From IMG/VR virus record IMGVR_UViG_2602041905_000014: 8,971 nt of DNA; one strand, given 5' to 3'. The notes beneath the pieces were generated by a model that searched no databases, was not told the DNA's origin, and worked only from the letters and a program-made list of their open reading frames with translations. Below, in pieces: positions 2,739-8,971 of the stretch (position 1 is its first letter; each line of letters starts with the position of its first letter). The position numbers and the translations under genes were made by a program. Source of the DNA: a virus (lineage: Duplodnaviria; Heunggongvirae; Uroviricota; Caudoviricetes).

Positions 2739-3959
2739 GTGGGAAAAGCACTAAACAAACTGAGCGATTCAACGTTAAAAAAATTGGTGGCTGTCCAGGC
2801 AGAAAAAGAGCGTTTTTACTCCGACGGGGGCGGGCTGGAGATTAAACACTCAAAGGGCGGCAAATTAACCTGGTATTTCCGGTACCGAACGGGAGGCCGT
2901 GAGGTTGCCGCAGAGCGGTTAAAGCTGGGGGCTTACCCTGAATTGTCGCTGAAAGCCGCAAGGGAAAAACGCACACTGTGCCGGGCATGGCTGGCTGAGG
3001 GTAAAAACCCCCGTTATGAGTTGTGCGCCACAGTACAGGAAGCACTAAAACCCGTTACGGTGAAGGAAGCGATTAACTACTGGCTGGAGGAATATGCGAA
3101 GGATAACCGCAAAGATTACATAAAGCTGGTGCAGCGTATGGATAAGCACATCATTTGCCATATTGGGGCAATTCCCCTTGATAAGTGTGATACAAGGCAG
3201 TGGATCGCATGTTTTGACCGCGTACGAAAAAAAGCACCAGTAGCAGCGGGCCATGTCATGCAGACATGCAAACAGGCGCTAAAGTTTTGCCGCAGGCGGC
3301 GCTACGCGTTTAGCAACGCCCTGGACGATTTGATCGTTACTGATGTGGGTAAGAGAGCAGAAATCCGCGAGAGAGTGCACAGCAACAGCGAACTAAAAGA
3401 AATTCTACGCGCTATTGATGGTGATGTGTTCGCTCCCTATTACAGTGCGTTAATGCGCTTGTTAATTGTGTTCGGGTGCAGAACGGCAGAGATCAGACTT
3501 TCAGAGATCAAAGAATGGGATCTGAAAGAAATGTTGTGGACAGTGCCAAAAGAGCACAGCAAAACGAAGGTAACAATATTCCGACCTATTCCTGATGGTA
3601 TTTTGCCGTTCATTCAGAAGCTGGTGGAGCAAAACGCACACACTGGGTTATTACTCGGCGAACTGAAAAAAGATACCACGGTGGCGCAATATGGACGAAA
3701 TGCGCATAAGCGGCTTAAGCAGGAACACTGGACGCTGCATGATTTCCGACACACGTTTACAACTATGCTGAATGATTTAGGTGTCGATCCGCATATCGTG
3801 GAGCACATCACAGCGCATCAGATGCCAGGTCAGCAAAAAACCTATAACCATTCACGCTATTTGCAGGCGAAACGGGACGCACTGAATCTATGGGTTGAGC
3901 GTCTTGATGTGATTGCAGGATATAATGAAAATATTGTGATATTGAGAGGGATACAATGA
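2739..3959 (+). CDS. int: Tyrosine site-specific integrase (phage P4-type), 406 aa, GTG start
   Basis: N-terminal arm-binding-type region (YSDGGGLEIKHSKGGKLTWYFRYR). C-terminal catalytic signature HDFRHTF, then HxxxH and the tyrosine in TYNHSRY. GTG start with an AAGAGG Shine-Dalgarno motif 8 nt upstream. Confidence 0.9.
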   Translation: MGKALNKLSDSTLKKLVAVQAEKERFYSDGGGLEIKHSKGGKLTWYFRYRTGGREVAAERLKLGAYPELSLKAAREKRTLCRAWLAEGKNPRYELCATVQEALKPVTVKEAINYWLEEYAKDNRKDYIKLVQRMDKHIICHIGAIPLDKCDTRQWIACFDRVRKKAPVAAGHVMQTCKQALKFCRRRRYAFSNALDDLIVTDVGKRAEIRERVHSNSELKEILRAIDGDVFAPYYSALMRLLIVFGCRTAEIRLSEIKEWDLKEMLWTVPKEHSKTKVTIFRPIPDGILPFIQKLVEQNAHTGLLLGELKKDTTVAQYGRNAHKRLKQEHWTLHDFRHTFTTMLNDLGVDPHIVEHITAHQMPGQQKTYNHSRYLQAKRDALNLWVERLDVIAGYNENIVILRGIQ

Positions 3960-4810
3960 CGAAAAAAGTAAATAGTAAAAAAGATTTACCAAAGTCATTT
4001 GATTTAGGCAAATATGATTGCCTAGAAAACTTGTCGGATAAAGATCTATTTCGCCAATTATATTGGCGACAAGATGATTTAACAATGAAACATTCTGAGA
4101 TGCCTGAATATGGATTTATGTTTGGTGCTGAATACCCGTTGCATAATAATTACGGGGATCCATTTGGAGAGCTGAAAGAAGACGATTGGTTTTGTGATAA
4201 ACAAAAAGAATATGACCATAAAGTGCAACCGAAGTTAATTGAGCTAAGTTATGATGATGGAATTAAACCTGTAACAAGGTTTGATATATCAATGATTAAT
4301 AAACTGACTGCGGAAAGAGGATATTGGAAGGATAAACCAATCATCATAGATAATGAGATGGTTGGAAGTTTAATATCAGAAGATAATGGGATGTTTTGGG
4401 CTGTGATGCGTGAACCAGTGAATCTCCTTTCTGATACATTAGATAATATGCTTGTTTCTGTTGACTTACTACATAACAGAGATGATGAGTTGATTGAAGC
4501 GTTTACAAAACTATTACCAAAATGGCGTAGTGAACTTTCAATTGTTGAGCCAGACAAACCAATTGCAGGAAGTTGGGAAAGCATACGACGTAAAATTATT
4601 GATTATAAGATAATCCCATTAATTGACTTATTATCTTGGGAGTTGTCTACAGATAGAAAAATTTCATTAGGGGTGCTTGCCGTATCTTTGTACCCTGATG
4701 GTGAAAAGGACACCTTTGCTATTGCTCAGACTGTAAAACCTTTCTTAGAAAAAATAATGCGCAGCGATTCTTTAGAAAAAATAAGAAAAATGTTATCTAA
4801 TGAAAATTAA
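3956..4810 (+). CDS. Hypothetical protein, 284 aa, acidic, no recognisable motif; AT-rich gene translationally coupled to int
   Basis: Its ATG (3956-3958) overlaps the int TGA (3957-3959) as ATGA, with a GAGAGGG Shine-Dalgarno motif upstream. A long uninterrupted ORF whose base composition is visibly more AT-rich than the flanking int and alpA genes. Confidence 0.7.
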   Translation: MTKKVNSKKDLPKSFDLGKYDCLENLSDKDLFRQLYWRQDDLTMKHSEMPEYGFMFGAEYPLHNNYGDPFGELKEDDWFCDKQKEYDHKVQPKLIELSYDDGIKPVTRFDISMINKLTAERGYWKDKPIIIDNEMVGSLISEDNGMFWAVMREPVNLLSDTLDNMLVSVDLLHNRDDELIEAFTKLLPKWRSELSIVEPDKPIAGSWESIRRKIIDYKIIPLIDLLSWELSTDRKISLGVLAVSLYPDGEKDTFAIAQTVKPFLEKIMRSDSLEKIRKMLSNEN

Positions 4811-4913: not shown

Positions 4914-5138
4914 ATGAATCAAAATACACAATTTCAATCACTAACAGATCGCGTAATTCGTGAGGATGAATGTCGTAAGTTAACAGGCGTCAGCCGTACT
5001 ACACGCTACGAACTGGAGAAGAAAGGGGGCTTTCCGTCTCGCCGTAATCTTGGGGGGCGTTCTGTAGGCTGGTTGCTTTCCGAAGTTATGGACTGGGTGC
5101 AAAGCCGTGACCGCGTTAATTCAGGTAAGGCAGCCTAG
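4914..5138 (+). CDS. alpA: AlpA-family phage transcriptional regulator (MerR-like HTH, excisionase-like), 74 aa
   Basis: The translation (LTDRVIREDECRKLTGVSRTTRYELEKKGGFPSRRNLGGRSVGWLLSEVMDWV) has the AlpA-family HTH pattern. Its size and its position near the integrase are typical of P4-like islands. Confidence 0.85.
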   Translation: MNQNTQFQSLTDRVIREDECRKLTGVSRTTRYELEKKGGFPSRRNLGGRSVGWLLSEVMDWVQSRDRVNSGKAA

Positions 5139-5354
5139 GGGGGAGCTATGACACATAAAACAAAGGCGACCGGGGGCGGTCGCCAGTGGCATAACACTAA
5201 ACTTGAGCATATCCAGAATACCAGGTTGTCGGCTAGTGGGCAATGCTATCAGTCTGGCTCGATTCGCTGCCATGCCTGCAATGAGCGTATTTTCCTAGAA
5301 TACTCTTTAAGGTACTTCTCAAGGATAAACGCACATGGTGCGAATCTCTCCGGT

Positions 5355-5576
5355 TCATGTTCGTTTACCGCATTTTTGCGTTGTTTTTTCTTGGATGAGG
5401 ATAATTTCTNNNNNNNNNNGACGCTGGCGGTATTCAACTTCTCGCTTTAATGCTGCTGTTACAAACTGCCCTGTACTTTCACCAGGCATTTTTACCGCCT
5501 CAACATTGTTCATAACTTCATGCGGAACCCTTGCCGCAACTGTTTGTGATTTTGCGTTTACTGCTTTTGTCGCCAT
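5355..5576 (-). CDS. Putative ribbon-helix-helix (Arc/MetJ/CopG-like) DNA-binding regulator; the 3' end is uncertain because the frame crosses the N gap
   Basis: Minus-strand ATG at 5574-5576 with an AAGGAG Shine-Dalgarno motif 8 nt upstream. The N-terminal 52 aa (MATKAVNAKSQTVAARVPHEVMNNVEAVKMPGESTGQFVTAALKREVEYRQR) fit a beta-strand plus two-helix RHH layout. It is divergent from the operator-bearing promoter region. Confidence 0.5.
   Translation of the reverse strand: MATKAVNAKSQTVAARVPHEVMNNVEAVKMPGESTGQFVTAALKREVEYRQRXXXXEIILIQEKTTQKCGKRT
5410..5419. other. Assembly gap (run of 10 N)
   Basis: Ten consecutive N characters. The true length and sequence are unknown, so every reading frame crossing it is unreliable. 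Confidence 0.99.
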
Positions 5577-5625: not shown

Positions 5626-5677
5626 AGTGTTCAACACTTGACGTGTTTAACACCTAGGCTTAAATTGGTGTTTAACA
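5626..5677. promoter_or_regulatory. Operator/promoter region: three 11-bp palindromes GTGTT-N-AACAC overlapping a sigma70-like promoter
   Basis: Palindromes at 5626-5636 (GTGTTCAACAC), 5642-5652 and 5667-5677 (both GTGTTTAACAC). TTGACG (5637-5642) plus TTAAAT/TAAATT about 16-17 nt downstream (around 5659-5665) form a plausible rightward promoter with the palindromes at the -35, spacer and start region. Confidence 0.65.
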
Positions 5678-5775
5678 CCTTGTTGATGCAAGGTGCAGAA
5701 ACGACGAAACCCGGCAGTGCGCTAACACTAACCGGGCTTCTAACCACCAACGATAGCAGAAGTATCGAGGTAGCT

Positions 5776-5979
5776 ATGTTAAATCATACCACACACCCGC
5801 AAGGGCGGGACTCGCACAACCTGAATAAATTCATCTGGCGTTTTATCGCCCTGAGCACGGCACAACCGCGCGTGATTCACATCGTGGCCACCAGCGAACA
5901 GGAAGCACGCCAGCAATCCCCGGCTGGCTGCGTGATGATATTCGCCGCCCGTATTCGTCAGGGGGTGTGCCATGCCTGA
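5776..5979 (+). CDS. Small hypothetical protein, 67 aa, first gene of the rightward operon; possibly of the Icd-like family seen in P4-like prophages (recollection, unverified)
   Basis: ATG at 5776 preceded by GAGGT, in frame with the tail of the gap-spanning ORF 5335-5979. Its stop overlaps the start of the next ORF. Confidence 0.4.
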   Translation: MLNHTTHPQGRDSHNLNKFIWRFIALSTAQPRVIHIVATSEQEARQQSPAGCVMIFAARIRQGVCHA

Positions 5980-6292
5980 TATGTCAAATTACCAGTACCT
6001 GATTAATCCGCATTTTAACTGTGAGCATGATATTGCTAAAAAGGTTTATTCCGCTGCGGATGGGGCTACTGACAATATATCAATGGGTATTGCGTCAATT
6101 GGTAGCCTGATGTGGCATGCGTCAGAAAATGAGGACTATGACGAAAAGGCTATGCGCATTGATATGGGTAATATCGGTTTGTTACTGGCAATGCTTGGGC
6201 AGTTTGATATTTCGTTACGGTGCACCATTGAAAATGCCGCAGATGCATTAAATGCCATAAAGAAAGCGAATACTGATTCAAATCGGGGATAA
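5972..6292 (+). CDS. Hypothetical protein, 106 aa
   Basis: ORF whose ATG (5972) overlaps the end of the upstream small ORF, same orientation as the replication gene. No motif recognised. Confidence 0.5.
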   Translation: MPDMSNYQYLINPHFNCEHDIAKKVYSAADGATDNISMGIASIGSLMWHASENEDYDEKAMRIDMGNIGLLLAMLGQFDISLRCTIENAADALNAIKKANTDSNRG

Positions 6293-6298
6293 ATAATC

Positions 6299-6598
6299 AT
6301 GAGAACATATTTATCTGGCTTGACTGCCAGCGGTTATGCACACCCCAAAATTATCCCCGGCGCTATTTATCTGGATAAGAACGGTAACAGAGTAACGGTA
6401 AAAGAACTGATGTTTGACCGTGTGTATTTTATTCGTGATGGCTATTCATTTCATAGTTCGCTGAACGTGGAGATCTTTATTAGCAGATTCAGGCGGGAAA
6501 TCCCGCTTTCCAGAAATAATCATGTGTCATGTATGGATGTTGATAAAAAACTACAGGAACTGAAAAACATGATTGCCGCGTGGAGAGAGCAGAAATGA
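6299..6598 (+). CDS. Hypothetical small protein, 99 aa; resembles the DUF4222-type small proteins of P4-like prophages (recollection, unverified)
   Basis: ATG at 6299 is 6 nt after the previous stop. Its TGA (6596-6598) overlaps the ATG (6595-6597) of the helicase gene as ATGA. Pattern Y-D-x-x-G-x-RV-V ... DRV-F-R-GY. Confidence 0.55.
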   Translation: MRTYLSGLTASGYAHPKIIPGAIYLDKNGNRVTVKELMFDRVYFIRDGYSFHSSLNVEIFISRFRREIPLSRNNHVSCMDVDKKLQELKNMIAAWREQK

Positions 6599-8412
6599 AA
6601 AAAGCGCCAAATTTAAAACACCAGCCGCGTGACAAAATGACGGAAGTCATCATTTTTGCGGGTAGTGATGCGTGGGCACATGCGAAGCAGTGGCAGGAAC
6701 AGGACGGGCGACTGGCAGGCGATAACGTGCCACCTGTCTGGCTTGGAGAGCAACAACTTGCCGAACTGGACAACCTGCAAATCGTACCGGACGGACGCTA
6801 TCGCGTGCGTCTCTATCAGGCGGGGTTATTGCGTCCGGTGCTTGTTAATACCATCGGGCAGAAACTGGCAGCGGCAGGTGTCAGGGATGCTGATTATTAT
6901 CCTGAAGGAATGCACAGCCAGAAACGGGAGAACTGGCACGAATATCTGGAACGTGAACGGGCAGAGCTGGCGGAAAAGAAAAAGGTAGTTGAACTGCCTG
7001 TAAAGAAAAAAGAGCGGGTAAAAGACGATAACGCTTCATCACTGGCGCTTAACCAGATGGGAGCAAGTCAACGCGGCGAAGTTCTCCTGGCACATTATGG
7101 CGGTGAACTGGCGATTCATGCTGACTCTGACACTGTTCACCATTACAACGGCGTTGTATGGGAGCCAGTACAGGATAAAGAATTACAGCGAGCTATGGCA
7201 CAGATTTTCATTGATGCGGAGATCAGCTATTCGCAGAACGCCATTAAATCGGCGGTCGATACCATGAAGTTAAGTTTGCCTGTAATGGGGAATACAGCCC
7301 GTAACCTGATTGGATTCAGTAACGGGGTATTTGATACCAGAACAGGTAATTTTCGGGAGCATAACAAAAACGACTGGTTGTTAATTGCCAGTGAATTACC
7401 TTTCAGCCCACCAGCAGAGGGGGAAACGCTGGCAACACATGCGCCGAATTTCTGGAAGTGGTTACGCCGTTCGGTGGCTGAGAATGACCGCAAGGCGGAT
7501 CGCGTACTGGCTGCATTATTCATGGTGCTGGCGAACCGGTACGACTGGCAGTTATTCATTGAGGTAACAGGTCCAGGGGGAAGTGGTAAAAGCGTGATGG
7601 CGGAGATTTGCACCATGCTGGCGGGTAAGGCCAACACAGTATCGGCAAGCATGAAGGCGCTGGAAGATGCAAGGGAACGCGCGTTAGTGGTTGGCTTTTC
7701 GCTGATTATCATGCCGGATATGACCCGCTACGCTGGTGATGGGGCAGGGATTAAGGCTATTACAGGCGGTGACAAGGTGGCAATTGACCCGAAACACAAA
7801 GCCCCCTACTCAACGCGTATTCCGGCAGTAGTGCTGGCGGTTAACAATAACGCCATGTCATTCAGTGACCGCAGCGGGGGGATCTCACGTCGTCGGGTGA
7901 TATTCAATTTTTCGGAAGTTGTACCGGAGAACGAACGTGATCCAATGCTGGCCGAAAAAATAGAAGGTGAGCTGGCGGTAGTGATTCGCCATCTGCTTAC
8001 ACGGTTTGCTGACCAGGACGAAGCCAGACGCCTGTTATATGAGCAGCAGAAATCTGAAGAAGCACTGGCGATAAAGCGAGAGGGGGATTCGCTGGTGGAC
8101 TTCTGCGGCTATCTCATGGCGTCGGTAATGTGTGATGGCCTGTTAGTGGGTAATGCTGAAATTGTGCCATTCAGCCCACGCAGGTATCTCTATCATGCCT
8201 ATCTGGCTTATATGAGGGCACATGGGTTTGGTAAACCTGTAACACTGACGCGCTTCGGTAAAGATATGCCGGGGGCAATGGCGGAATATGGCAGGGAGTA
8301 TATGAAACGGAAAACGAAGCACGGTTTGCGTTCAAACGTGACACTGACGGAGGAATCAGAAGACTGGATGCCATCATGTGTATCGGTCACTAATGACGAT
8401 AGCAAAAATTAA
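6595..8412 (+). CDS. P4 alpha-like replication protein: P4-family primase C-terminal / D5-like SF3 helicase domain with a C-terminal origin-binding region, 605 aa from ATG 6595 (the track's GTG at 6580 is less likely)
   Basis: Walker A motif TGPGGSGKS inside the segment DWQLFIEVTGPGGSGKSVMAEIC, which is characteristic of P4-type primase-helicases. GGAGAGAG Shine-Dalgarno motif 5 nt before ATG 6595. Cognate-looking iterons lie immediately downstream. Confidence 0.85.
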   Translation: MKKAPNLKHQPRDKMTEVIIFAGSDAWAHAKQWQEQDGRLAGDNVPPVWLGEQQLAELDNLQIVPDGRYRVRLYQAGLLRPVLVNTIGQKLAAAGVRDADYYPEGMHSQKRENWHEYLERERAELAEKKKVVELPVKKKERVKDDNASSLALNQMGASQRGEVLLAHYGGELAIHADSDTVHHYNGVVWEPVQDKELQRAMAQIFIDAEISYSQNAIKSAVDTMKLSLPVMGNTARNLIGFSNGVFDTRTGNFREHNKNDWLLIASELPFSPPAEGETLATHAPNFWKWLRRSVAENDRKADRVLAALFMVLANRYDWQLFIEVTGPGGSGKSVMAEICTMLAGKANTVSASMKALEDARERALVVGFSLIIMPDMTRYAGDGAGIKAITGGDKVAIDPKHKAPYSTRIPAVVLAVNNNAMSFSDRSGGISRRRVIFNFSEVVPENERDPMLAEKIEGELAVVIRHLLTRFADQDEARRLLYEQQKSEEALAIKREGDSLVDFCGYLMASVMCDGLLVGNAEIVPFSPRRYLYHAYLAYMRAHGFGKPVTLTRFGKDMPGAMAEYGREYMKRKTKHGLRSNVTLTEESEDWMPSCVSVTNDDSKN

Positions 8413-8425
8413 ACTTATGGAATAA

Positions 8426-8648
8426 CTGTTCACCACTGTTCACCCCGTCATAAATGTCTTTTATATCATTATATTATAGGGTGAACAGTTATTTATGAAC
8501 TGTTCACCAAACTATTCACTGTTCACCTTTTTGATTGTTTATTGAGCTGCAAGGGTGAACAGTGGTGAACAGTTGGTGAATAGTTTTTGTGAAACTGTTC
8601 ACCCCTTAACATTATGAATTGAAAGAGAAAATAGCAAAAGGTGAACAG
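8426..8648. repeat. Iteron cluster (putative ori or crr of the P4-like replicon): about 9 perfect and 2 degenerate copies of CTGTTCACC / GGTGAACAG in both orientations
   Basis: Perfect copies at 8426-8434, 8436-8444, 8480-8488 (reverse), 8500-8508, 8519-8527, 8554-8562 (reverse), 8564-8572 (reverse), 8595-8603 and 8640-8648 (reverse). Degenerate copies at 8511-8519 and 8575-8583. The TGTTCACC octamer is the type I iteron bound by P4 alpha. Confidence 0.85.
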
Positions 8649-8971
8649 GTGAAGGGTTAAAATACAAAAATTTTATTACAGCATGGAATATTAAGTTTTA
8701 GCCGACAGGTAGTTAGCCATAAGAGGATATTTGTCGCTTAGTATTACGTACATAACAGCAAACACTTTTCTGGTTTGCTGGATTAATAGATAAGCGCTAT
8801 AAGTTAGTTAGTTTTGAAAAATTTATTGAATAACTCTAAGCTTTCAGGATGTATATATTGAGTAGGGTAACTGATACGTTGTGAGCGTCCAATTTTTATT
8901 GTGTTCTTTTTCGTCTTCCCAAAAAATAGATTCTTCCATGTTAAAATGTTTCCGTGATTATATTTATTGTC

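What the first reader, a model, noticed from the sequence alone, without database searches (positions are those of the whole stretch)
5776..6598. Tightly coupled small-ORF operon feeding into the replication gene
Three small ORFs (67, 106 and 99 aa) are chained by overlapping or near-abutting start and stop codons, ending in an ATGA overlap with the helicase gene. In P4-like elements such small proteins include helper-phage derepressors and host-interference factors, so the 106-aa protein in particular, which I cannot place, may be a helper-manipulation factor. My Icd-like and DUF4222-like assignments are from memory.
Basis: inference. Interest (0 to 1): 0.4.

Follow-up and report, generated by a model that had tools for sequence, protein, structure and literature searches.

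The report
Satellite early operon with antisense gate
The three small genes are the real, tightly coupled front end of the replication operon of an E. coli phage satellite (PICI), laid out like phage P4's kil/eta-to-primase operon, and they appear to be gated by a previously undescribed small antisense RNA and a small repressor.

Summary
ORFs 5776-5979 (67 aa), 5972-6292 (106 aa) and 6299-6598 (99 aa) run into the primase gene (6595-8412) through an 8-nt overlap, a 6-nt gap and an ATGA overlap. HMMs confirm Icd-like and DUF4222. The 106-aa protein belongs to no curated family.

The window is E. coli, and the island is a PICI that shares this module with the model element EcCICFT073. In 128 related loci the chain always starts with Icd-like. 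It ends with DUF4222 overlapping the replication gene by ATGA in 123 of 128, and the middle slot is a variable cassette.

Three things were missed. First, the 67-aa ORF is the tail of a conserved long frame that starts 10 nt after alpA, which is the P4 kil/eta design. Second, a conserved ~80-nt minus-strand RNA lies opposite the Icd-like ribosome-binding site. It has its own extended -10, covarying stems, hypervariable loops and a weak SymR resemblance. Third, a divergent YlcI/YnfO gene co-varies with its operators.

The likely role of the module is to gate a toxic leader gene and satellite replication. A helper-manipulation role for the 106-aa protein is untested. The RNA and the repressor are predictions only, with no expression data.

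The parts
4914..5138 (+). alpA (AlpA-family regulator/excisionase). It is the gene immediately upstream of the long frame and the counterpart of P4 orf88.
   Evidence: PF05930, 58.8 bits. AlpA activates EcCICFT073 genes (PMC6092414).
5148..5979 (+). Eta-like long open frame, 306 aa in the unmasked genome (L001 11500-12420). Its ATG lies 10 nt after the alpA stop. It reads through the antisense of ylcI, the internal promoter and operators, and the sRNA region, and it ends as the Icd-like ORF. In the window it appears split because the N run hides 99 nt.
   Evidence: In 110 distinct loci this frame has no stop in the 600 nt upstream of the Icd ATG in 81 loci (mean 0.95 stops), against about 13 stops in each of the other two frames.
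5410..5576 (-). ylcI/ynfO-family small gene (59 aa), divergent from the operon. Its last 23 nt lie inside the masked stretch 5410-5419. It is the candidate repressor.
   Evidence: NF041551, 59.7 bits against a cut-off of 30. RefSeq annotates WP_000201462.1. Each protein variant pairs with its own operator core.
5627..5678 (.). Three copies of the palindrome GTGTT(C/T)AACAC (5627-5637, 5643-5653, 5668-5678). They bracket a sigma-70-like promoter: TTGACG at 5638-5643, a 17-nt spacer, and TAAATT at 5661-5666.
   Evidence: The general form is GTG-N5-CAC, in 2-5 copies, with at least 12 cores, each tied to one YlcI/YnfO variant.
5698..5778 (-). Predicted ~80-nt cis-antisense sRNA. Hairpin 1 has stems at 5741-5755 and 5763-5775 and a loop at 5756-5762. 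Hairpin 2 has stems at 5706-5715 and 5731-5740 and an apex at 5716-5730. A U-rich tail follows. The RNA is complementary to the leader, the SD (GAGG, 5767-5770) and the start codon of the Icd-like ORF.
   Evidence: Rfam SymR gives a sub-threshold hit of 33.6 bits, E 0.0023. Minus-strand folding has z -4.35 against -2.77 for the plus strand. Six pairs show compensatory changes and 98.6% of cells are paired, with 0 of 500 shuffles as good. There are 105 G.U pairs on the minus strand against 2 on the plus, and MFE is -36.2 against -22.8 kcal/mol. CM R1 finds it at the same place in EcCICFT073, Edwardsiella and distant satellites.
5783..5791 (-). Extended -10 promoter element TGgTATGAT for the antisense RNA. 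It lies inside codons 3-6 of the Icd-like ORF, 6-8 nt upstream of the predicted RNA 5' end.
   Evidence: the exact element is present in 160 of 169 loci. The remaining variants are TATAAT, TATTAT, TATAGT and TGATATGAT. pi is 0.02, whereas the intervening codon 2 varies freely (pi 0.32).
5776..5979 (+). Icd-like / P4 Kil-like ORF (67 aa). It is the first cistron after the internal promoter, and its own SD is GAGG with a 5-nt spacer.
   Evidence: NF033153, E 6e-20. It is 42% identical over 43 aa to P1 Icd. P4 Kil/Eta carries the same domain.
5972..6292 (+). 106-aa orphan protein, predicted to be a helical hairpin. It occupies the variable cassette slot.
   Evidence: phrog_15327 (unknown function), E 5e-71, with no Pfam or NCBIfam hit. 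AF2 pLDDT is 81, with helices at 19-51 and 58-104. Distant homologues lie in the same kind of chain in other satellites.
6299..6598 (+). DUF4222 protein (99 aa). It is always the last small ORF and is coupled by ATGA to the replication gene.
   Evidence: PF13973, E 7e-17. It is present in 126 of 128 chains, with the ATGA junction in 123 of 128.
6595..8412 (+). Primase-helicase (D5_N, DUF5906, Pox_D5) with a P4-family primase C-terminal region.
   Evidence: TIGR01613 scores 95 bits, below its cut-off of 108.7. phrog_864 matches at E 2e-191.
8425..8649 (.). About 10 iterons (GGTGAACAGT / ACTGTTCACC) immediately 3' of the primase gene. This is the probable satellite replication origin.
   Evidence: PICI origins lie immediately 3' of the replication gene (PMC6092414).

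Best explanation
The three ORFs are the promoter-proximal cistrons of the early/replication operon of an EcCICFT073-type phage-inducible chromosomal island (PICI) inserted between rcnR and thiM. The operon is built like the left operon of satellite phage P4, in the order alpA, Eta/Kil, small genes, primase.

The 67-aa Icd-like ORF is the counterpart of P4 Kil, a growth-inhibiting leader protein. Like Kil, it is the in-frame tail of a long Eta-like frame that starts right after alpA.

Proposed mechanism (inferred). In the quiescent island, a YlcI/YnfO-family repressor bound to three GTG-N5-CAC operators keeps the internal promoter low. A constitutive ~80-nt cis-antisense RNA pairs with the leader, Shine-Dalgarno and AUG of the Icd-like ORF. 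Because every downstream start overlaps or abuts the preceding stop, blocking the first cistron silences the 106-aa gene, DUF4222 and the primase by uncoupling and polarity.

When a helper phage switches on alpA, transcripts from upstream are translated through the long frame. Ribosomes then arrive at the Icd region without needing the occluded ribosome-binding site, and the coupled chain is expressed through to the primase.

The 106-aa protein is one of about eight interchangeable small cassettes of unknown function. DUF4222 is a fixed partner of the replication gene.
For: Shown directly:
- Coordinates and overlaps.
- Family assignments.
- Identity to an E. coli chromosome and the island map.
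- The same module in EcCICFT073, namely ylcI(-), Icd-like, four small ORFs, DUF4222, primase.
- Conserved order, conserved coupling and a variable middle slot in 128 chains.
- Purifying selection on all three ORFs.
- Stop-codon depletion specific to the Icd frame for hundreds of nucleotides upstream, even across the highly divergent promoter segment.
- P4 has the same nested layout by sequence. Its Eta frame is open from 8821, with ATGs overlapping the orf88 stop. Kil starts at ATG 8365, is 65 aa and has an AGGAGG SD. An Icd-like domain is present, and the Kil-to-epsilon overlap is 8 nt.
- P1 icd overlaps ant1 by ATGA, and its ribosome-binding site is the target of c4 RNA.

Antisense RNA:
- Covariation, with 0 of 500 shuffles reaching the observed values.
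- Strand asymmetry of 105 against 2 G.U pairs, and lower MFE on the minus strand in 35 of 35 sequences.
- A conserved extended -10.
- Hairpin stems with pi 0.015 against loops with pi 0.36, compared with 0.105 at Icd third codon positions.
- CM hits at the same position and strand in Edwardsiella, in distant satellites and in a 16.5-kb record deposited as a phage (vB_KppS-Ant) that carries a related module.
- Reciprocal weak hits with SymR.

Repressor: one operator core per YlcI/YnfO variant.

Literature:
- The P4 eta/kil logic, as summarised in PMC10111431.
- AlpA activates EcCICFT073, and a global repressor of Gram-negative PICIs is 'unclear' (PMC6092414).
- In ECOR61, an Icd-like gene linked to a primase is the likely growth-arrest effector (bioRxiv 10.1101/2023.04.06.535777).
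Against: - No expression data exist for the RNA, the short or long protein, or the repressor. All regulatory steps are inferred from sequence comparison.
- The internal promoter is only a 9-of-12 consensus match, and the scan found no more such sites than shuffles give.
- The comparison set is dominated by close relatives (at least 88% Icd identity), so some covariation counts reflect a few inherited events.
- The SymR match is far below Rfam's gathering score (33.6 against 61) and is absent for several variants.
- The U-tract after hairpin 2 is interrupted in this window's variant.
- Stop-codon depletion could be selected for something other than ribosome transit.
- A perfectly paired sRNA-mRNA duplex might also block or cleave upstream-initiated transcripts, which the model does not address.
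- Toxicity of this particular Icd-like protein has not been tested.
Confidence: 0.6

Rival explanations
1. The small proteins, and the 106-aa one in particular, are helper-phage manipulation factors comparable to the P4 epsilon derepressor.
For: The slot after the Kil/Icd-like gene is where P4 encodes epsilon, joined by the same 8-nt overlap. The slot is a swappable cassette with about eight unrelated small-protein families, as expected for helper- or host-specific factors. The protein is a small helical hairpin, a common shape for protein-binding inhibitors. Distant homologues keep the same position in other satellites.
Against: It has no similarity to epsilon or P4 orf106. It has no family, solved-structure, fold or defence-library match. 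The evidence is positional only, and it does not distinguish helper manipulation from replication, regulation or host interference.
Confidence: 0.25
2. The module is primarily an abortive-infection or superinfection-exclusion device. A phage protein derepresses the operon, and the Icd-like protein arrests the cell. Replication of the island is secondary.
For: In ECOR61, a prophage-borne locus holding an Icd-like gene and linked genes that include a primase inhibited growth when phage orf24 was expressed, and removing the Icd-like gene abolished the effect. P4 Kil kills on over-expression (PMC10111431). Double-layered silencing of a toxic first gene fits a toxin-antitoxin-like design, in which the antisense RNA opposite the SD resembles a type I antitoxin.
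Against: The chain always ends in a replication gene followed by an iteron origin. In EcCICFT073 the pri-rep gene is needed for efficient transfer. No PADLOC model matches. The two roles are not mutually exclusive.
Confidence: 0.3
3. DUF4222, and perhaps the 106-aa protein, are accessory replication factors that work with the N-terminal domain of the replication protein.
For: DUF4222 directly precedes the replication gene and overlaps it in 123 of 128 chains, whether that gene is a D5-type primase or a RepA-type helicase. Those two kinds of replication protein share their first ~130 residues.
Against: The only studied DUF4222 protein, RgdR, is a transcription regulator of the LEE island (PMC10877973). 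DUF4222 genes also sit next to int/xis in lambdoid prophages, away from replication genes. Distant satellites with DUF927 primases lack DUF4222.
Confidence: 0.3
4. The structured element upstream of the Icd-like ORF is a same-strand immunity RNA of the P1 c4 / P4 CI type, or simply an mRNA leader hairpin. It is not an antisense RNA.
For: P1 and P4 place a c4/CI RNA just upstream of their Icd-like genes on the coding strand. C4 and isrK hits are reported in several Gram-negative PICIs (PMC10111431). The plus strand can also fold (z -2.77).
Against: No C4, c4-a1b1 or isrK hit appears at E<=1 in the window or in five related loci. G.U pairs occur 105 times on the minus strand against 2 on the plus. 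The minus strand folds better in 35 of 35 sequences. The U-tract and a conserved extended -10 are on the minus strand.
Confidence: 0.07

Closest known systems
Phage P4 left operon: orf88 (vis/alpA-like), eta/kil, epsilon, orf151, orf106, alpha, with CI RNA immunity
   Same: The gene order is the same: an AlpA-like gene, then a long frame whose 65-67-aa tail is an Icd-like protein with its own strong SD, then small coupled ORFs, then a P4-family primase. Both Icd-like tails match NF033153. In both, the Kil-like gene overlaps the next gene by 8 nt. In both, the long frame starts at the end of the alpA-like gene and an internal promoter lies inside it (PMC10111431).
   Different: P4's immunity factor is a same-strand C4-type RNA with seqA/isrK targets. 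The window has none of these. In their place it has a divergent YlcI/YnfO gene, type-specific operators and a minus-strand RNA. The small genes are unrelated to epsilon, orf151 and orf106. The island has no sid, delta or psu, and its late genes are a protease-capsid fusion and DUF1441.
EcCICFT073, the model Gram-negative PICI
   Same: The module is the same: ylcI/ynfO(-), the antisense RNA (R1, 87.9 bits), Icd-like, small ORFs, DUF4222, primase with overlapping junctions, and int and alpA upstream.
   Different: EcCICFT073 has four small ORFs (76, 73, 73 and 77 aa) where this island has the single 106-aa gene. Its integration site (near roxA) and its late module (lambda-like capsid and decoration genes) also differ. 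None of the small ORFs, the RNA or YlcI/YnfO is discussed in the papers I could read.
Phage P1 immI operon: c4 RNA, icd, ant1/ant2
   Same: A homologous Icd protein (42% over 43 aa) is the first cistron. It overlaps the next gene by ATGA, and its ribosome-binding site is the target of a small antisense-acting RNA that thereby controls the downstream gene (record annotation).
   Different: c4 is made from the same strand and acts on separate target sites. The downstream gene is an antirepressor, not a replication gene. CM R1 found no significant match in the first 50 kb of P1, which includes immI.
SymE/SymR type I toxin-antitoxin of E. coli K-12
   Same: Both are ~77-80-nt cis-antisense RNAs with two hairpins, whose 5' end lies at the start codon of a harmful gene and covers its SD. 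They hit each other weakly in both directions, on the correct strand and in register.
   Different: Scores are far below Rfam's threshold. SymE is an AbrB-fold protein unrelated to Icd. symE is a stand-alone SOS gene, not the leader of a replication operon. Common descent is not established.
Plasmid R1 CopA/CopT-tap-repA control (from general knowledge)
   Same: An antisense RNA blocks translation of a short leader ORF whose translation is coupled to the replication gene.
   Different: The leader peptide there has no known function of its own, there is one coupled junction rather than three, and there is no sequence relationship.

Membership tests
Icd-like protein (NCBIfam NF033153) | Match to the family model above its curated cut-off | tested here: met
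   71 bits against a cut-off of 25, E 6e-20. Pairwise with P1 Icd, 42% identity over 43 aa, E 1e-7.
Icd-like protein (NCBIfam NF033153) | Inhibits host cell division or growth when expressed | not testable with these tools
   Known only for P1 Icd and P4 Kil, and inferred for an ECOR61 homologue.
P4 kil/eta nested-gene arrangement | The short ORF is the in-frame 3' end of a long ORF that begins upstream of an internal promoter | tested here: met
   The 306-aa frame is L001 11500-12420. It has no stops in the 600 nt upstream in 81 of 110 distinct loci, against about 13 stops in the other frames. The P4 layout was checked by sequence. The internal promoter is only a consensus match.
P4 kil/eta nested-gene arrangement | The long ORF starts at the end of the alpA/vis homologue | tested here: met
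   The ATG at window 5148 lies 10 nt after the alpA stop at 5138. In P4 the ATGs overlap the orf88 stop.
P4 kil/eta nested-gene arrangement | CI (C4-type) RNA and seqA/isrK target sites inside the long ORF | tested here: not met
   No C4, c4-a1b1 or isrK match at E<=1 in the window or in five related loci. P4 itself gives 74.9, 44.1 and 60.8 bits.
P4 kil/eta nested-gene arrangement | A Rho-dependent terminator relieved by translation of the kil region | not testable with these tools
   Needs transcription assays with and without Rho inhibition.
DUF4222 (Pfam PF13973) | Match above the gathering score | tested here: met
   61.1 bits against 27, residues 16-67.
P4-like satellite (core set int, alpA, alpha, epsilon, sid, delta, psu) | Presence of sid, delta, psu and epsilon | tested here: not met
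   The island map in L001 shows none of them. Its late genes are a ClpP-protease/capsid fusion and DUF1441. The 106-aa protein is unrelated to epsilon. No HMM search for psu, sid or delta was run on every ORF.
Gram-negative PICI (EcCICFT073 type) | int and alpA, then a pri-rep gene with an iteron origin immediately 3', about 10-15 kb, with few or no tail or lysis genes | tested here: met
   The island is about 10.7 kb, between rcnR and thiM. Iterons lie at 8425-8649. It shares the module with EcCICFT073. Induction by a helper phage is not testable here.
SymR antitoxin RNA (Rfam RF01809) | Score at or above the gathering threshold | tested here: not met
   33.6 bits against 61, and 30 bits in two relatives. 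The reverse search hits K-12 symR at 19.4 bits, E 0.0016.
SymR antitoxin RNA (Rfam RF01809) | Cis-antisense RNA whose 5' end lies at the start codon of the target gene and covers its SD | tested here: met
   The predicted RNA spans 5698-5778 on the minus strand, against the SD at 5767-5770 and the ATG at 5776. It has its own extended -10 at 5783-5791. Its existence as a transcript has not been shown.
YlcI/YnfO family (NCBIfam NF041551) | Match above the curated cut-off | tested here: met
   59.7 bits against 30. DNA binding has not been tested. Operator co-variation is reported.

The most novel reading that the evidence does not exclude
EcCICFT073-type PICIs carry a two-layer immunity module that has not been described. 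The first layer is a YlcI/YnfO-family repressor with at least a dozen operator specificities. The second is a SymR-like cis-antisense RNA with hypervariable recognition loops. Together they replace the C4/CI RNA of P4 and P1 at the same position, gate a Kil/Icd-like toxin and satellite replication, and define incompatibility or immunity groups among co-resident islands. This would supply the 'missing' repressor of Gram-negative PICIs. It would also suggest that the chromosomal symE/symR pair descends from such a satellite module.
Probability: 0.4. Interest if true: 0.7.

Novelty: new variant of a known kind. Interest (0 to 1): 0.5.

Why it matters
How Gram-negative PICIs stay silent and are switched on is an open question. 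The 2018 description of these elements says that a global repressor is unclear and that the helper signal is unknown. This locus and its relatives, including the model island EcCICFT073, offer concrete and cheap-to-test candidates: a small repressor with matched operators, an antisense RNA over the ribosome-binding site of a toxic leader gene, and a P4-style long frame that could let alpA-driven transcripts bypass the block. The analysis also links three textbook systems (P1 c4-icd-ant, P4 CI-kil/eta-alpha and SymE/SymR) through one shared gene and design. Finally, it flags that the 'Icd-like proteins with long N-terminal extensions' seen in annotations are the Eta-like frame.

Tried and rejected
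- **106-aa protein.** No function could be assigned. Pfam, NCBIfam, PDB sequence profiles, PADLOC, and Foldseek against PDB and BFVD gave nothing. The fold hits are generic helical hairpins with E>0.1. The first AF2 model, built from a shallow alignment, was poor (pLDDT 64); a deeper alignment gave 81.
- **Phage collection.** A DNA search found nothing. A protein search found only one 16.5-kb phage record, vB_KppS-Ant.
- **Genome scan.** The species-level scan returned only three loci, so the comparative work rests on viral and metagenome contigs that are mostly close relatives.
- **Long N-terminal extension.** I first treated it as an annotation artefact. I reversed this after the stop-codon counts and the P4 comparison.
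- **Conserved 'KTKAT' peptide.** This peptide at the start of the long frame is best explained by a minus-strand terminator hairpin at 5165-5184, not by protein conservation.
- **Coordinate error.** My first diversity calculation used wrong loop coordinates. It was redone.
- **Literature.** Searches for DUF4222, Icd-like, PICI with antisense RNA, YlcI/YnfO and the RNA's own sequence found no description of this RNA or repressor. One search was wasted on over-broad terms. Forti et al. 1999 is not held in the library, so I cite it through PMC10111431.
- **Unrelated sequences.** P1 c4 and the window RNA do not align, and CM R1 does not hit P4.
Full report
**1. Observation**

The three ORFs exist exactly as described.
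- The 67-aa ORF runs from ATG 5776 to TGA 5977-5979.
- The 106-aa ORF starts at ATG 5972, an 8-nt overlap (ATGCCTGA), behind a GGGGG Shine-Dalgarno. It ends at 6292.
- After a 6-nt gap, the 99-aa ORF runs 6299-6598.
- Its TGA (6596-6598) overlaps the primase ATG (6595-6597).

The window is 100% identical to the chromosome of E. coli SCU-123, where RefSeq calls the same four genes.

One caveat concerns the window itself. The N run at 5410-5419 replaces 99 nt of real sequence. This shifts frames to its left and hides the end of a minus-strand gene.

**2. What the proteins are**

- ORF1 is Icd-like (NF033153, 71 bits against a cut-off of 25). It is 42% identical over 43 residues to P1 Icd.
- ORF3 is DUF4222 (PF13973, 61 bits). 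The only studied member of that family is RgdR, a regulator of the EHEC LEE island (PMC10877973).
- ORF2 has no Pfam, NCBIfam, PADLOC or PDB relative. It matches only phrog_15327, of unknown function.

An exhaustive profile search found 21 proteins related to ORF2 (E up to 0.001). They include ~100-aa homologues at 25-41% identity that share a G-x-S-x-I-G-x-L-M...E-x-Y...D-M...G motif. With these homologues, AlphaFold gives a confident helical hairpin (pLDDT 81). That fold matches nothing informative.

All three ORFs are under purifying selection: pN/pS is 0.50, 0.34 and 0.36, against 0.08 for the primase. The 106-aa frame is intact in 66 of 67 loci.

**3. Context**

The genes lie in a ~10.7-kb island between rcnR and thiM. 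Its gene order is int, DUF6387, alpA, ylcI/ynfO (minus strand), the three ORFs, primase-helicase, a HEPN gene, a protease-capsid fusion and DUF1441. Iterons lie directly 3' of the primase gene at 8425-8649.

There is no sid, delta or psu, so the island is not P4-like in the strict sense. The experimentally studied PICI EcCICFT073 has the same module: ylcI(-), Icd-like, four small ORFs, DUF4222, primase.

The ylcI-to-icd segment occurs in 1529 of 5426 complete E. coli genomes. The whole three-ORF stretch occurs in 407 of them.

**4. Comparative anatomy**

I surveyed 128 complete chains drawn from 160 viral and metagenome loci.
- The chain always opens with the Icd-like gene.
- It closes with DUF4222 in 126 of 128.
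- DUF4222 overlaps the replication gene by ATGA in 123 of 128, whether that gene is a D5-type primase or a RepA-type helicase. These two kinds of replication protein share their first ~130 residues.
- Between the fixed ends lie one to six small ORFs from about eight unrelated families.
- The 106-aa family occupies the slot alone in 67 chains.

Distant homologues of the 106-aa protein sit in equivalent chains upstream of DUF927 primases in other satellites.

So the coupling is a conserved design feature, and the 106-aa gene is one interchangeable cassette.

**5. The 67-aa ORF is nested in a long frame**

Upstream of the Icd ATG, the same frame has no stop codon across 600 nt in 81 of 110 distinct loci (mean 0.95 stops). 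The other two frames carry about 13 stops each. Even the highly divergent promoter segment (-200 to -78) is stop-free in 105 of 110.

In the unmasked genome the frame is 306 codons long. It begins at an ATG 10 nt after the alpA stop (window 5148).

This is the arrangement known from phage P4, which I checked by sequence.
- P4's old 'cI ORF' carries the Icd-like domain (E 8e-21).
- A 65-aa product starts at ATG 8365 behind an AGGAGG SD. This is Kil.
- The frame is open back to ATGs that overlap the stop of the alpA-like orf88. This is Eta.
- Kil overlaps epsilon by 8 nt.

PMC10111431 summarises Forti et al. 1999 as follows. A constitutive promoter lies inside eta. Kil is the truncated, cell-killing form. 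Full-length Eta is made only from an upstream late promoter, and it is translationally coupled to the alpA homologue. Its translation prevents termination, so the downstream genes are expressed.

**6. A different immunity module**

P4 holds a C4-type CI RNA and isrK/a1b1 targets inside eta (74.9, 60.8 and 44.1 bits). The window and five relatives have none of these at E<=1.

Instead, the minus strand opposite the leader shows a sub-threshold SymR match at 5703-5775 (33.6 bits, E 0.0023). Comparative analysis supports a real antisense RNA there.
- An extended -10 (TGgTATGAT, 5783-5791) lies 6-8 nt upstream of the predicted 5' end. The exact element is kept in 160 of 169 loci, and some variants move it toward consensus.
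- The first of its two hairpins has an invariant stem. The second has six pairs with compensatory changes. Overall 98.6% of cells are paired, and no shuffle of 500 does as well.
- There are 105 G.U pairs on the minus strand against 2 on the plus. Mean MFE is -36.2 against -22.8 kcal/mol, and the minus strand folds better in 35 of 35 sequences.
- A U-rich tail follows hairpin 2 on the minus strand.
- The loops are hypervariable (pi 0.36-0.38; 13 and 22 variants). The stem of hairpin 1 has pi 0.015, and third codon positions of Icd have pi 0.105.

A covariance model built from these sequences finds the element at the same place and strand in four kinds of relative:
- EcCICFT073 (87.9 bits);
- Edwardsiella (92 bits);
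- distant satellites (79 and 40 bits);
- a 16.5-kb record deposited as a phage, vB_KppS-Ant (36 bits).

Outside the family, its best hit is K-12 symR, on the correct strand and in register (19.4 bits, E 0.0016).

**7. A candidate repressor**

The divergent 59-aa gene is a YlcI/YnfO family member (NF041551). Three copies of GTGTT(C/T)AACAC bracket a TTGACG-17-TAAATT promoter-like site.

Across loci the operator has the form GTG-N5-CAC, in 2-5 copies. At least twelve different cores occur, each paired with its own protein variant. That pattern is expected of a repressor and its operators.

**8. Model: what is shown and what is inferred**

Shown:
- gene identities;
- conserved order and coupling;
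- the nested frame;
- homology of the layout to P4 and P1;
- the sequence signatures of a minus-strand structured RNA with its own promoter;
- operator and protein co-variation.

Inferred:
- In the quiescent island, the repressor and the antisense RNA keep the Icd-like leader untranslated. Through coupling and polarity, the 106-aa gene, DUF4222 and the primase stay untranslated too.
- When the helper activates alpA, upstream transcripts are translated through the long frame. This bypasses the occluded ribosome-binding site and drives the chain.

Supporting precedents:
- In P1, c4 RNA targets the icd ribosome-binding site, and icd overlaps ant1 by ATGA.
- In ECOR61, an Icd-like gene linked to a primase is the likely growth-arrest effector triggered by a phage protein.

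**9.

A helper-manipulation role for the 106-aa protein remains possible, because the protein sits where P4 has epsilon and the slot is a cassette. There is no homology and no test, so I give it about 0.25. DUF4222 is more likely tied to the replication protein or to regulation.

**10. Limits**

- No expression data were available.
- The related loci are mostly close relatives.
- The promoter scan is no better than chance.
- The SymR resemblance is weak and variant-dependent.
- The searchable literature is incomplete. Forti 1999 is cited second-hand, and later PICI papers in subscription journals could not be searched.

Noticed in passing
window 5410-5419: The 10-N run stands for 99 nt of real sequence (L001 11762-11860). 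ORFs that cross it are mis-framed in the window, and the 3' end of the ylcI/ynfO gene is hidden.
   Followed up: yes
window 8425-8649: About ten iterons (GGTGAACAGT / ACTGTTCACC), in both orientations, lie just after the primase stop. This is probably the satellite origin. They also explain the spurious MIR821 and mir-4662 Rfam hits.
   Followed up: partly
window 3956-3959: The integrase gene (2739-3959) and the DUF6387 gene (3956-4810) also overlap by ATGA. DUF6387 has no known function.
   Followed up: no
window 5165-5184 (minus strand): A GC-rich hairpin followed by a T run, read on the minus strand, lies just after alpA. It is probably the terminator of the ylcI transcript. Read on the plus strand, it encodes the conserved 'KTKATGGG' start of the long frame.
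   Followed up: partly
L004 (NZ_OZ392456.1) 3868-4113 and 14676-15015: A related island is inserted inside the major capsid gene of a lambdoid prophage. This is a helper-embedded PICI of the kind described in PMC10111431.
   Followed up: partly
L002 (NZ_CP168269.1) 7139-7756: In this relative, a Phage_ASH domain (PF10554, E 1e-13) lies between the antisense-RNA region and the Icd-like ORF, in the same frame.
   Followed up: no
proteins P0002 and P0020: Some assemblies encode the Icd-like and 106-aa proteins as one fused polypeptide, because the stop between them is lost.
   Followed up: no
L001 15245-15958 (outside the window, minus strand): A HEPN-domain gene sits between the primase and the capsid genes, on the opposite strand. 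It may be a defence cargo gene, but no PADLOC model matches it.
   Followed up: partly
L005 (K-12) 2336-2412 compared with window 5698-5778: symR and the satellite RNA hit each other weakly in both directions, and the apical sequence of hairpin 2 is almost the same (GUGUUGGCGCAC against GUGUUAGCGCAC). Whether symE/symR derives from a satellite module is open.
   Followed up: partly
window 6595-7000 compared with L003 8405-8800: D5-type primases and RepA-type helicases in these islands share their first ~130 residues. The recombination breakpoint therefore lies inside the replication gene, and DUF4222 plus this N-domain travel together.
   Followed up: no
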